64,000 nucleotides of DNA, from assembly GCA_951406725.2 (NCBI GenBank), contig OX597820.1, positions 104,780,001 to 104,844,000 on the forward strand, in the 5' to 3' direction. This DNA is from Octopus vulgaris. Lineage: Eukaryota. The position numbers are program-made. Below, in pieces: positions 13,881 to 16,900 of the stretch. Each line of letters opens with the position of its first letter. Position 1 is the first letter of the stretch.

Positions 13881-13926
<46 letters not shown>

Positions 13927-16900
13927 ATCAAAATAAAATAAAAACATGATGCGAAGGATTCAGCGGTACATATGTTTCGGGCCTTTATTAGACAGATTTA
14001 TAACAAAGCATAATGTATGTCTGTGGCCTTCTTCAGCCGCGCACAACAGCTTCCACAAGGACATGTGTTACATCAAAAATTCTTGGTTGGGGATGCAAAT
14101 CCTCTCGTTTACGTACGACATAATGCGGCAGCAGCATAGAATTGAAGCGTCCATCTCTTTCTTCTCTCAATGTAGAATGAGGAAACTTGGATGTTGAGGT
14201 AATGTAAATAAATAAATACATATATAGAGGTGAAGATGGAGGGGCGAGAGTTCGGGACGAGGGATAAAAAATATATATAAAAAATGTAAGTATAGAATAA
14301 TATAACAATGTAGAGGATAAAGATATAAAGAGTTGTAAGGAGATGTAAAGGGGGTATAAAGAAATATAAAGAAATATAAATAAATGTAAAGGCATAAGGT
14401 TATAAAGTAAAAATAGAAATGGAAATAAAAGTAAAAAAGTAAAAGAACCTGATAAAAACATGATAAAAGTGTAAAAGAATGTAAAGATAAGGGATGTATA
14501 GAGGTTACGGACCAAGCATGGTGGTCAGGAGATTGATAAAATTTAGTTGTAGAACTGTCAGTAAATCAACCGTTTCGTCTGGGGACTTAATGCGTTGTAA
14601 ATCAGAGCTGATGAGCATTTAATCTGGTTCCTTGAATTAAATGGACTTCTAGTACATACATATCATCATGGATACATACACCCACATACACGCGTACATA
14701 TATGTCTCCAAGCCTATAAGCATACACACGCACTCGCGTGTAAACACGTACATAAACACACACGTACCCACACGCACGTGCGTACACACACATACATACA
14801 ACAGAATATCCGCATATATAGACGGACATTACGCGCGTACACGCTCACATGTATATACGCGCGCCCCTCATTACATACACACACGTATATGCCCACGCCT
14901 CTAGGTCTAGGTATAAGATATTAAAGGATGTGTATAAGAACGTATGTAAAGAATCCCGTACTCATGTTAATACGCGCACGCACACACGGCTGTGTGTCCG
15001 TATGTGCGTGCACATATACACCCATACACACACACAGAGACACACGCGCACATGGGTATAGCTATAAGATATCGAAGTATGCATGTACATATATGTGCGT
15101 GCATATGTATGTATGCGCATACACACGTACGCGGACGCTCGTATACTCAAAAGGTGGATCCGTAGGTAAGTAAATATATATAGAGGTGTAAAGCGATAAG
15201 AATGAGGGTAAGGGTAAATATTAGAAATAAAAAATACAGTATAAAATAAGAAATACAATGTAATAGTTAGAAATGAAATATAAGAATTATAAAAATTATA
15301 AGAGTTAAGGTAAGGGATGAAAATGAAAATGAGAATAAATGTAAGTAGAATAAAAGCAAAAATAAAATTAAAATTAAAGATAAAAATAAATGGAAGTAGG
15401 ATAAAAGTAAAAATAAAAGTAAAAATAAAAATAAAAATAAAATAAAATAAGATAAAAATATAATTTTGTAAAGTTTAACATGAGATGAAGGTGGTTGAAA
15501 GCTATAGGTGTGTGTTAAACGTAGGGGCGGGCGGGGAACTGAAAATTGGAAGGGTGGGAAGTGGAGTTTGGCGGTGTGCGTTCAACATCTGAGTTAGAAA
15601 TGTGAAAGGGTATAGATATAGGGGATTAAAGAGACTACATAGGGAGGATATGGGTGTAGGAGAAGAAATATTTAGGGAAAAGAAGTCATATATGGGAGAC
15701 AAAATTTGTATATATAGGGGGAAAATGCAGGGAACCGTATATGCACATATACACACCCACACACACACACACACACGCACACGTATATATATATATGTAT
15801 ATGTACACATACGTACACGTATGTGCACATACATACGCACACACACACACACACACATACACACGCACATATAGGAAAGCGGGATGTGCTGGAGCCGACA
15901 GGTTGCACCGGGTGGGAGGAAATTGCATGGGGAAATTGCATCGTTATGTTAGAAAAATGTTATATAATTTTGCGTATAGTAACATAGTGTTTGGAGAAAT
16001 AACCGGTTTCTTTTCAAATTTCTCAAATTTCTTTACCTATATCGTGTCATGTCTTCGCTATGTTGTGAAATATATATATATATATATTTGGCTGCTTGCT
16101 TCTCTGGAGGCTGTCAGAATGATGTGGACACCTCTGATGAGAACCCAATATGACTCAAAAATAGATTAAGGTGGTCCATCATTTTTCAGTCTGCGGAGAA
16201 ATGGCTAAAATTTTCCCTATTTATAATTATACCATATGTTACATATTTATTATGTTTTTACATGTTTTTATCAGGTTCTTTTACTTTTTTTACTTTTATT
16301 TCCATTTCTATTTTTACTTTATAACCTTATGCCTTTACATTTATTTATATTTCTTTATATTTCTTTATACCCCCTTTACATCTCCTTACAACTCTTTATA
16401 TCTTTATCCTCTACATTGTTATATTATTCTATACTTACATTTTTTATATATATTTTTTATCCCTCGTCCCGAACTCTCGCCCCTCCATCTTCACCTCTAT
16501 ATATGTATTTATTTATTTACATTACCTCAACATCCAAGTTTCCTCATTCTACATTGAGAGAAGAAAGAGATGGACGCTTCAATTCTATGCTGCTGCCGCA
16601 TTATGTCGTACGTGAACGAGAGGATTTGCATCCCCAACCAAGAATTTTTGATGTAACACATGTCCTTGTGGAAGCTGTTGTGCGCGGCTGAAGAAGGCCA
16701 CAGACATACATTATGCTTTGTTATAAATCTGTCTAATAAAGGCCCGAAACATATGTACCGCTGAATCCTTCGCATCATGTTTTTATTTTATTTTGATCAA
16801 TTTACTCCACCACCTACACCACCAAACGGTATACACAGGTGCTTATAATTATCAAGTACTCACCCCGAATTTCTATATATATTATACATAGATATATATA

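What the first reader, a model, noticed from the sequence alone, without database searches (positions are those of the whole stretch)
13923..16873. Young ~2.9-kb non-coding HHR element that captured 314 bp of its own upstream flank
Seen: the structure is arm(-) 13923-14462, non-coding body to 15939, inverted copy of 12547-12864 at 15940-16253, a short atgttttta duplication, arm(+) 16261-16801 and a tail. The captured piece spans a junction between unrelated repeats about 1 kb upstream of the insertion site. Inference: template switching onto neighbouring DNA while the two cDNA ends were being joined, which makes PLE insertion a source of local inverted duplications.
Basis: partly seen in the sequence, partly recalled or inferred. 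Interest (0 to 1): 0.7.

Follow-up and report, generated by a model that had tools for sequence, protein, structure and literature searches.

The report
Penelope-type insertion with flank-copied junction filler
A young, non-coding mobile element of the Penelope (ribozyme-carrying) type sits here as two head-to-head copies, and the seam between them is filled with an inverted copy of DNA lying 1 kb upstream, a natural example of a repair "snap-back" so far seen mainly in engineered systems.

Summary
The arms 13923-14462 and 16261-16801 are inverted copies with 1 mismatch and 1 one-base gap in 540/541 nt. The stretch 15940-16253 is an inverted copy of 12547-12864, with 0 mismatches and a 4-bp (AT)n length difference.

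Rfam finds no hammerhead. My own type-I descriptor with a palindromic helix III hits both arms plus one site at 12384-12342. Only 1 of 300 random sequences gave any hit.

Inverted arms, a one-sided 72-nt tail, a (TA)n target and no ORF fit a non-autonomous Penelope-like insertion. No second family copy could be examined.

The source piece is embedded colinearly in an older two-unit hammerhead repeat that has a paralog at 58.8 kb. So the flank is the donor.

Both borders of the filler carry short tandem stutters ending in AT.

Best reading: the 3' end of the long cDNA folded back onto its own strand in the upstream flank, copied 314 nt, then joined the second cDNA.

The neighbouring PLE relic has a 73-bp inverted self-copy at its 5' end with the same geometry. 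Snap-back is known for R2 and L1. Interest is modest.

The parts
13923..14462 (-). Left arm: 3'-terminal 540 nt of the long, minus-sense copy of the element
   Evidence: Inverted copy of 16261-16801 with 1 mismatch and 1 gap
13963..14040 (-). Type-I minimal hammerhead motif of the left arm
   Evidence: Descriptor hit. Not found by Rfam
14463..15939 (-). Non-coding body, present only in the long copy. Purine-rich on the + strand, with internal microsatellites. 15162-15461 is a 67%-similar A-rich repeat of 14204-14461
   Evidence: No Pfam or PLE protein match. Internal similarity found only with the low-complexity filter off
15918..15941 (+). 11-nt word repeated with period 13, ending in the AT shared with the first two bases of the filler (left seam)
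15940..16253 (-). Filler: inverted copy of window 12547-12864
   Evidence: 0 mismatches in 314 nt, 4-bp (AT)n difference
16254..16260 (+). 7-nt stutter. With the preceding AT it repeats the 9 nt at 16262-16270 (right seam)
16261..16801 (+). Right arm: short, 5'-truncated plus-sense copy of the element's 3' end
16684..16761 (+). Type-I minimal hammerhead motif of the right arm. Predicted cut between 16757 and 16758, which is 44 nt before the arm end and 116 nt before the tail end
   Evidence: MFE folding does not recover the fold (z = +0.99)
16802..16873 (+). One-sided 72-nt 'tail', AC-rich at its start and unique in the window
   Evidence: Similarity between the flanks begins at 16874
12547..12864 (+). 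Source of the filler, in its native context
   Evidence: Colinear with a paralog across the 12547 border
12256..12734 (-). Older two-unit (period 288) hammerhead-bearing, retrozyme-like repeat. Unit 12256-12437 has an intact motif. Unit 12544-12723 is degenerate and forms most of the source piece
   Evidence: Units 83.6% identical. Paralog at 58824-59261
12342..12384 (-). Canonical-looking minimal type-I hammerhead (5-bp helix II, 8-nt palindrome at helix III)
   Evidence: MFE keeps helices I and II. Two compensatory helix II changes in the paralog
10112..11623 (-). Relic of an autonomous PLE ORF (RT + GIY-YIG), lacking about aa 103-308 of its relatives and carrying stops
   Evidence: tblastn with 5 relatives. 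Relative P0006 has RVT_1 + GIY-YIG. Search
11625..11697 (+). 73-nt inverted copy of the relic's own endonuclease region 10361-10433, abutting the relic's 5' end
   Evidence: 91.8% over 73 nt, E = 1.2e-21
13735..13922 (.). TA/CA microsatellite left flank (target)
16874..17057 (.). TA/CA microsatellite right flank, loosely colinear with the left flank
   Evidence: 129 of 192 alignment columns identical

Best explanation
A non-coding RNA of the Penelope-like (PLE) kind was inserted into a (TA)n microsatellite by a PLE reverse transcriptase/GIY-YIG endonuclease acting in trans. The RNA is at least 2.0 kb, and its minimal type-I hammerhead lies about 45 nt from the 3' terminus.

Both target strands were cut, and both 3'-OH ends primed reverse transcription of the same 3' region:
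- The left (top-strand) cDNA started at the inner start site and ran 2,017 nt (13923 to 15939).
- The right (bottom-strand) cDNA started 72 nt further out, which gives the tail, and stopped after 612 nt (16873 back to 16261).

Two cDNA 3' ends cannot be ligated to each other. Before they were joined, the 3' end of the long cDNA folded back on its own strand. It paired through an AT dinucleotide with the exposed upstream flank 3.07 kb behind it (1.06 kb left of the target) and was extended for 314 nt (12864 down to 12547). It then let go and annealed to the end of the short cDNA, with short stutters at both seams.

Shown: the anatomy, the motif, the direction of copying, the stutters and the young age.

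Inferred: trans-mobilisation, priming on both strands, which strand was extended, and which polymerase did it (the RT or a host repair polymerase).
For: (1) Arms differ by 1 mismatch and 1 gap in 540 nt. Filler and source differ by 0 mismatches in 314 nt. These figures are compatible with one young event.

(2) The strict hammerhead descriptor (core boxes, helix I >=4 bp, helix II >=4 bp, palindromic helix III) gives 3 hits in the window: the two arms and 12384-12342. Only 1 of 300 first-order Markov simulations gave any hit. The 8-nt palindrome at helix III and the extra nucleotide after A9 are features listed for metazoan PLE min-HHRs (PMC4209133, parts 1-2 of 4 read).

(3) An inverted 5'-truncated copy, a tail at only one end, a (TA)n target and undefinable TSDs are all described for PLEs (PMC8557442, passages).

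(4) A purified PLE protein cleaves and extends both strands and starts at two internal sites whose spacing equals the tail. The RT start lies 85-92 nt downstream of the hammerhead cut (PMC11167929, main text read). Here the two ends lie 44 and 116 nt downstream of the predicted cut.

(5) A PLE RT/GIY-YIG relic lies 2.3 kb away. It carries a C-x4-C-x2-C linker (translation), the motif type that Craig et al. link to (TA)n targeting.

(6) The source is native. It is colinear with a paralog across its left border.

(7) The filler sits exactly at the truncation point of the short copy. Of the 13 short tandem duplications (>=9 nt, period 9-16) in 13923-16873, two lie exactly on its two borders, and both end in AT.

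(8) The neighbouring PLE relic has the same same-strand fold-back geometry on a smaller scale: 73 nt copied from 1.19 kb behind its 5' end.

[quoted passage not shown] Self-annealing of an L1 cDNA end on a hyper-resected flank has also been proposed (PMC11702581, passages).
Against: - Rfam finds no hammerhead at gathering score or at E<=10.
- The motif region does not fold better than shuffles (z = +0.99; 174 of 200 shuffles fold at least as well).
- Helix II is only 4 bp, is flanked by an unpaired A and C instead of a clean G10.1-C11.1 closing pair, and carries a roughly 40-nt loop.
- My descriptor was written after I had seen the motif.
- No second copy of the arms or body exists in the window, so neither the family nor its consensus ends are known.
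- The arms share no similarity with the local PLE relic.
- The tail is 72 nt against the 30-40 bp described, and it matches nothing.
- No clean target-site duplication exists. The flanks are only 129/192 alike.
- A 2-nt microhomology is weak.
- The two stutters could be native to the element.
- Nothing here tells RT from a host polymerase.
- The assembly could not be checked.
Confidence: 0.55

Rival explanations
1. RNA-level template switch. After reaching position 16261 on the element RNA, the RT jumped to a minus-sense transcript of the neighbouring retrozyme-like repeat (a read-through from 12864 towards 12547) and copied that RNA. The filler would then be a chimeric cDNA, as in L1/U6 chimeras.
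For: In the filler, the degenerate hammerhead unit lies in the same sense as the hammerhead of the right arm. The required template therefore has the sense in which such repeats and the neighbouring PLE would be transcribed. Fusions to other RNAs by template jumping are a recorded junction class (PMC11371274, passages).
Against: The filler also holds 130 nt of unrelated sequence and the (AT)n beyond the repeat. It is identical to the copy 1 kb away, whereas the paralog in the window is only 68% alike. That a random cellular RNA should come from the very next kilobase is unexplained unless nascent local RNA is favoured. The shared orientation is a one-in-two coincidence.
Confidence: 0.12
2. Replication-based template switching (FoSTeS/MMBIR), unrelated to the insertion itself. 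A simple 5'-truncated PLE-type copy (13923-15939 plus 16802-16873) existed first. A later stalled fork copied 12864-12547 and then 14462-13923 in inverted order and returned.
For: Both inverted blocks lie within 3.5 kb on the same strand and are joined by short stutters, as in serial template switches. The (TA)n run at 13922 is a plausible stalling point that would explain why the second block ends there.
Against: It needs three switches. It makes the end of the inverted block coincide with the element's 3' terminus by accident. It ignores that inverted arms with a one-sided tail are the usual PLE form. It requires the 72-nt tail to be the element's 5' end, for which there is no support.
Confidence: 0.12
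3. Assembly artefact: a chimeric or mis-joined stretch created the inverted blocks.
For: Craig et al. state that complex PLE structures often cause assembly problems. The region is full of microsatellites. The only arm differences are one base and one homopolymer length, which could be sequencing errors.
Against: The structure is not a simple fold-back palindrome: 1.8 kb of unique sequence separates the arms, and the two inverted blocks are in permuted order. The seams carry ordered stutters. The two (AT)n runs differ in length, so the copies were assembled independently. There are no Ns.
Confidence: 0.08
4. DNA transposon or foldback element with 540-bp terminal inverted repeats. Alternatively, the 314-nt piece belongs to the family consensus and 12547-12864 is a fragment of another copy.
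For: Long, nearly identical inverted termini around a non-coding core.
Against: There is no target-site duplication next to the arms, and the ends are asymmetric, with 72 extra nt on one side. A PLE-type hammerhead in each arm would be a coincidence (1 of 300 simulated windows gave any hit). The source piece is continuous with an older repeat across its border, so it is not a fragment of this element.
Confidence: 0.05

Closest known systems
Penelope-like element insertions with an adjacent inverted 5'-truncated copy and a one-sided tail (Craig et al. 2021, PMC8557442; Frangieh et al. 2024, PMC11167929)
   Same: Inverted arms that share the element's 3' end, a tail at one end only, a (TA)n/AT-rich target, a hammerhead in the terminal repeat, and no definable TSD.
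   Different: There is no RT/EN ORF, so it is non-autonomous. The tail is 72 nt rather than 30-40. The seam between the two copies holds a 314-nt inverted copy of the flank; I found no mention of that for PLEs.
Snap-back 5' junctions of R2-protein-mediated insertion (PRINT; PMC11371274)
   Same: The cDNA 3' end primes further DNA-templated synthesis on the cDNA itself or on nearby target DNA before the 5' junction forms, which gives an inverted block. The window shows both forms: self-copy and flank copy.
   Different: That was an engineered system in human cells, at rDNA, with a single cDNA. Here it is a natural germ-line insertion of a different retroelement class, the template lies 1-1.4 kb from the break, and the snap-back end is joined to a second cDNA rather than to target DNA.
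L1-mediated foldbacks by self-annealing of the cDNA end on a hyper-resected flank (PMC11702581) and L1 twin priming
   Same: A TPRT-extended 3' end anneals in cis to exposed flank a few kb away. There is microhomology at the junctions, and both target ends are used as primers.
   Different: The L1 foldbacks end as large chromosomal rearrangements, not as a closed insertion. In twin priming, as I recall it, the two segments are different parts of one RNA. Here both arms contain the same 3'-terminal 540 nt.
Non-LTR retrozymes / minimal hammerheads of PLE repeats (Cervera & de la Pena 2014, PMC4209133; Li et al. 2026 preprint, 10.64898/2026.07.22.740005)
   Same: Non-coding, carry a type-I hammerhead with a tiny palindromic helix III, and are thought to be moved by PLE enzymes. 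The donor repeat 12256-12734, with two units 288 nt apart, fits this best.
   Different: The element of the finding is not a short tandem monomer. It is a 2-kb unit with a single hammerhead near its 3' end.

Membership tests
Penelope-like element (autonomous) | Single ORF with a telomerase-like RT and a GIY-YIG endonuclease | tested here: not met
   0 tblastn hits from 5 PLE proteins inside 13923-16873. 0 of 7 long frames match Pfam. The ORF relic at 10112-11623 is a different element.
PLE-derived non-autonomous insertion | Minimal type-I hammerhead with a palindromic helix III in the terminal repeat | tested here: met
   Hits at 16684-16761 (+) and 14040-13963 (-). Null: 1 of 300 simulations gave any hit. 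Caveat: Rfam is negative and the descriptor was made post hoc.
PLE-derived non-autonomous insertion | Extra nucleotide between A9 and 10.1, plus a conserved G10.1-C11.1 pair (Cervera 2014) | tested here: inconclusive
   The extra A is present. The 4-bp GGCC/GGCC helix is followed by an unpaired C before GAAA, so the closing pair is ambiguous.
PLE-derived non-autonomous insertion | Inverted 5'-truncated copy adjacent to the 5' end, forming flanking inverted repeats | tested here: met
   Arms share the 3'-terminal 540 nt. The short copy is truncated at 16261.
PLE-derived non-autonomous insertion | 30-40-bp tail at only one end | tested here: inconclusive
   A one-sided 72-nt extension at 16802-16873, bounded by the return of flank similarity at 16874. 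It is longer than described and matches nothing.
PLE-derived non-autonomous insertion | AT-rich or microsatellite target | tested here: met
   (TA)n/(CA)n on both sides.
PLE-derived non-autonomous insertion | Multi-copy family whose 3' end resembles an autonomous PLE | not testable with these tools
   No other copy in the window and no similarity to the local PLE relic. No eukaryotic genome collection was available.
PLE-derived non-autonomous insertion | Self-cleavage of the hammerhead | not testable with these tools
   Needs a transcription/cleavage assay. MFE folding is uninformative for dimeric minimal motifs.
TPRT snap-back junction (R2/L1 type) | Inverted copy of cDNA or nearby target DNA abutting the cDNA 3' end, on the same strand | tested here: met
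   On the top strand, 15940-16253 is the complement of 12864-12547 and directly follows the end of the long copy at 15939. Likewise 11625-11697 against 10433-10361.
TPRT snap-back junction (R2/L1 type) | Microhomology or stutter at the seams | tested here: met
   An AT is shared at both seams, and 9- and 11-nt tandem stutters lie on both borders. 2 nt is weak.
DNA transposon with long TIRs / Foldback element | Symmetric termini flanked by a fixed-length target-site duplication | tested here: not met
   No TSD next to 13923/16801, and 72 extra nt at one end only.
L1-type twin priming | Inverted and direct segments are different, non-overlapping parts of one RNA (feature recalled from memory, not from a call) | tested here: not met
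   Both arms contain the same 540 nt.

The most novel reading that the evidence does not exclude
Snap-back synthesis on exposed flank or on the cDNA itself is a regular step in how PLEs close their insertions, because they prime on both strands and so always end with two cDNA 3' ends to join. PLE activity would then be a recurrent, so far uncounted source of kilobase-range inverted duplications in invertebrate genomes. Part of the 'complex inverted structures' typical of PLEs would be snap-back products rather than second priming events. Two of the two PLE-type 5' seams in this window show the geometry.
Probability: 0.15. Interest if true: 0.6.

Novelty: new member of a known kind. Interest (0 to 1): 0.35.

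Why it matters
How PLEs finish integration is unknown. [quoted passage not shown]

A young natural insertion is a readable fossil of that last step. Its two cDNA-derived copies are still about 99.8% alike at the aligned bases, and its seam holds a traceable, identical copy of the flank with stutters at both borders.

It argues for three things:
- The two cDNA ends are joined by a polymerase-dependent, microhomology-using process.
- More than 1 kb of flank is exposed while this happens.
- The outcome is a local inverted duplication.

If common, this would matter for annotating invertebrate genomes and for reading small inverted duplications near PLEs. As a single case it is an anecdote, and the underlying process is already documented for R2 and L1.

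Tried and rejected
- Rfam scans of the whole window (gathering score) and of 11500-18000 (E<=10) gave no hammerhead, only microsatellite-driven miRNA-like matches. I therefore wrote my own descriptors.
- The looser descriptor also hit 30931-30871 (-). This hit failed the stricter descriptor and folds worse than shuffles, so I dropped it.
- MFE folding of the arm motif is no better than shuffles. I did not use it as evidence.
- A CTGATGAG word at about 14607 (+) in the body lacks a GAAA box in register (reading) and was no hit.
- I looked for a second family copy of the arms, body and tail in the window and found only low-complexity matches.
- I looked for a downstream repeat of the PLE relic's upstream region (a pLTR) and found none.
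- I tested the flanks for a long TSD. They are only 129/192 alike, with substitutions, so this is not a young TSD.
- The similarity between the arm's A-rich inner part and 15162-15461 of the body (67%) appears only with the low-complexity filter off. I do not count it as a pLTR.
- Literature searches for a flank-derived filler at PLE seams: 3 papers, none relevant judging by title and abstract; 0 papers; one search was too broad to be informative (1,380 papers).
- The supplements of the papers were not opened. The supplementary hammerhead alignments of PMC4209133 could bear on how unusual helix II is.
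Full report
**1. What is in the sequence**

The left arm 13923-14462 and the right arm 16261-16801 are reverse complements, 540 and 541 nt long, with one substitution and one single-base gap in an A-run.

Between them lie 1,477 nt present once (14463-15939). Then comes a 314-nt block (15940-16253) that is the reverse complement of 12547-12864, about 1.06 kb left of the element. It has no substitution and a 4-bp shorter (AT)n run. Seven further bases follow (16254-16260). With the preceding AT, they repeat the first nine bases after the start of the right arm.

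In the whole element there are 13 such short tandem duplications (9 nt or more, period 9-16), two of them plain CA runs. Two of the 13 lie exactly on the two borders of the block.

To the right of the right arm, 72 nt (16802-16873) match nothing else in the window. From 16874 the sequence is again TA/CA microsatellite and aligns loosely with the left flank 13735-13883 (129 of 192 columns). That marks 16873 as the end of the insertion. It is too diverged to be a young target-site duplication. The window has no Ns.

**2. Is it a hammerhead element of the Penelope kind?**

Rfam says nothing. It gives 0 matches at gathering score in 64 kb. None of the 143 matches at E<=10 in 11500-18000 is a hammerhead family; they are microsatellite-driven miRNA-like matches.

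Metazoan PLE hammerheads are minimal type-I motifs with a helix III of one or two pairs and a palindromic loop, and they are thought to act as dimers (PMC4209133, parts 1-2 of 4 read). I therefore scanned with my own descriptors.

- The first descriptor used the core boxes with helix I >=4 bp, helix II >=3 bp and any small helix III. It gave four places: the two arms, 12384-12342 (-) and 30931-30871 (-). The expectation was 0.04 per window (100 simulations).
- The second descriptor required helix II >=4 bp and a perfectly palindromic helix III/loop 3. It kept three: 16684-16761 (+), 14040-13963 (-) and 12384-12342 (-). One of 300 simulated windows gave any hit.

The arm motif has an 8-nt palindrome at helix III and an extra A after A9. 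Both are features named by Cervera and de la Pena.

Against the arm motif:
- Helix II is only 4 bp, with an unpaired C before GAAA, so the usual G10.1-C11.1 closing pair is ambiguous.
- Its loop 2 is about 40 nt.
- The region folds no better than shuffles (z = +0.99).
- I wrote the descriptor after seeing the motif.

The element has no coding capacity. 0 of the 7 frames of 120 aa or more inside it match Pfam. Five PLE proteins give no tblastn hit in it.

**3. Fit to known PLE anatomy**

[quoted passage not shown] Frangieh et al. show that a purified PLE protein cuts and extends both strands of an AT-rich target. It starts reverse transcription at two internal sites whose distance equals the tail. 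Those sites lie 111-118 nt into the ORF, and the hammerhead cut lies 26 nt after the start codon (PMC11167929, main text read).

Here the predicted cut (16757/16758) lies 44 nt before the arm end and 116 nt before the tail end. The left copy lacks the tail, and the target is (TA)n. The one-sided extension is twice as long as described, and I cannot show that it is element sequence.

An autonomous PLE relic is close by. The minus strand 11623 to 10112 matches aa 11-751 of relatives that carry RVT_1 and GIY-YIG, apart from a gap at about aa 103-308. It has a C-x4-C-x2-C linker before the GIY-YIG part, the motif type that Craig et al. link to (TA)n targeting. It shares no nucleotide similarity with the arms.

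One of the 15 relatives is named for a cephalopod, at 46% identity. This is only a weak hint at the host, and I did not pursue it.

**4. Where the 314-nt block comes from**

The source lies in a repeat of two units, 12256-12437 and 12544-12723, which are 83.6% alike with a period of 288. On the minus strand, the first unit carries the clean minimal hammerhead at 12384-12342. The second unit has a degenerate version in which GAAA has become CAAA.

The two-unit arrangement recurs at 58824-59261 (68% over 452 columns). The alignment runs without a break across position 12547, and the paralog shows two compensatory changes in helix II.

So the left border of the source is internal to an older element. 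The source also continues 130 nt beyond that element on its other side. The copy in the finding is identical to this source alone. The flank is therefore the donor and the block in the element is the copy.

Most of the captured piece is a retrozyme-like, PLE-related repeat unit (compare the preprint 10.64898/2026.07.22.740005; abstract and passages).

**5. How the block got there**

The block sits exactly where the short right copy is truncated, so it belongs to the seam between the two copies. On the top strand the order is: flank with the source, long copy (13923 to 15939), then the complement of the source read from 12864 down to 12547. This is what results if the 3' end of the top-strand cDNA folds back, pairs with its own strand further left and is extended.

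The same geometry appears at the 5' end of the PLE relic. The top strand runs 10112 to 11624 and then continues for 73 nt (11625-11697) as the complement of 10433-10361 (91.8%, E = 1.2e-21).

Two papers describe comparable events:
- For L1, self-annealing of the cDNA end on a flank resected by 6.3 kb has been proposed (PMC11702581, passages).

The two cases in this window correspond to the two R2 sub-classes. The fold-back needs the top strand at 12547-12864 to be single-stranded, which means more than 1.4 kb of resection or unwinding from the break. That is inferred, not shown.

The alternative that the bottom-strand cDNA was extended on the bottom strand of the source is less likely, because that strand is the one removed by 5' resection. 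I cannot tell whether the RT or a host polymerase did the copying.

**6. Rivals**

- An RT jump to a local minus-sense transcript fits the shared sense of the two hammerhead units. It does not explain why the RNA should come from the next kilobase.
- Serial replication template switches on a pre-existing simple insertion need three switches and a coincidence at the element's terminus, although the (TA)n run could act as a stalling point.
- A misassembly cannot be excluded without reads. PLE structures are known to trouble assemblers. However, the permuted order of the two inverted blocks, the ordered stutters and the differing (AT)n lengths do not look like a simple chimeric fold-back.
- A long-TIR DNA transposon is rejected by the asymmetric ends, the lack of a TSD and the ribozyme motif.

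**7. Novelty and verdict**

The element is a new member of a known kind, a non-autonomous PLE-type insertion in the usual inverted form. The flank-derived filler is a natural PLE example of a junction class already recorded for R2 and suggested for L1.

I found no report of it for PLEs. One search listed 3 papers, none relevant by title and abstract. One search found none. One search was uninformative. Subscription journals and supplements were not searched.

Noticed in passing
window 12256-12734 (-) and 58824-59261 (-): A two-unit (period about 288 nt) hammerhead-bearing, retrozyme-like repeat occurs at two loci. Each is preceded by (AT)n on the sense-upstream side. The motif is intact only at 12384-12342, and the paralog shows two compensatory helix II changes.
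   Followed up: partly
window 11625-11697 (+) against 10361-10433: A 73-nt inverted copy (91.8%) of the PLE relic's own endonuclease-coding region abuts the relic's 5' end, close to the likely start codon. It looks like cDNA snap-back on itself.
   Followed up: partly
window 10112-11623 (-): A decayed Penelope-like ORF (RT + GIY-YIG, C-x4-C-x2-C linker) with an internal deletion of about 200 codons and stops. No recognisable pLTR or hammerhead of its own was found.
   Followed up: partly
window 7778-9880: A roughly 2.1-kb satellite with a 15-nt unit (it reads NSIQF/SSVQF in one frame) starts about 230 nt beyond the 3' end of the PLE relic.
   Followed up: no
window 6518-6710 / 6763-6955: A 193-nt inverted repeat, 96% complementary, with a 52-nt spacer. 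It could be a hairpin-like (MITE-like) structure. No hammerhead hit there.
   Followed up: no
window 32451-35525 (+): Two long open frames (544 and 477 aa) separated by a single stop, the first with an RVT_1 domain. Probably a fairly intact non-LTR-type retrotransposon, unrelated to the PLE (only a weak tblastn match, E = 0.004).
   Followed up: no
window 50907-51552 (-): A fragment of a DDE_3 (Tc1/mariner-type) transposase.
   Followed up: no
window 30871-30931 (-): A loose hammerhead-like hit (helix I 6 bp, helix II 3 bp) that fails the stricter descriptor and folds poorly. Probably chance.
   Followed up: partly
window 13735-13883 and 16874-17057: The two flanks of the insertion are loosely colinear (129/192), including a non-microsatellite word. 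It is either an old local duplication in the microsatellite field or a much-slipped long duplication. Unexplained.
   Followed up: partly
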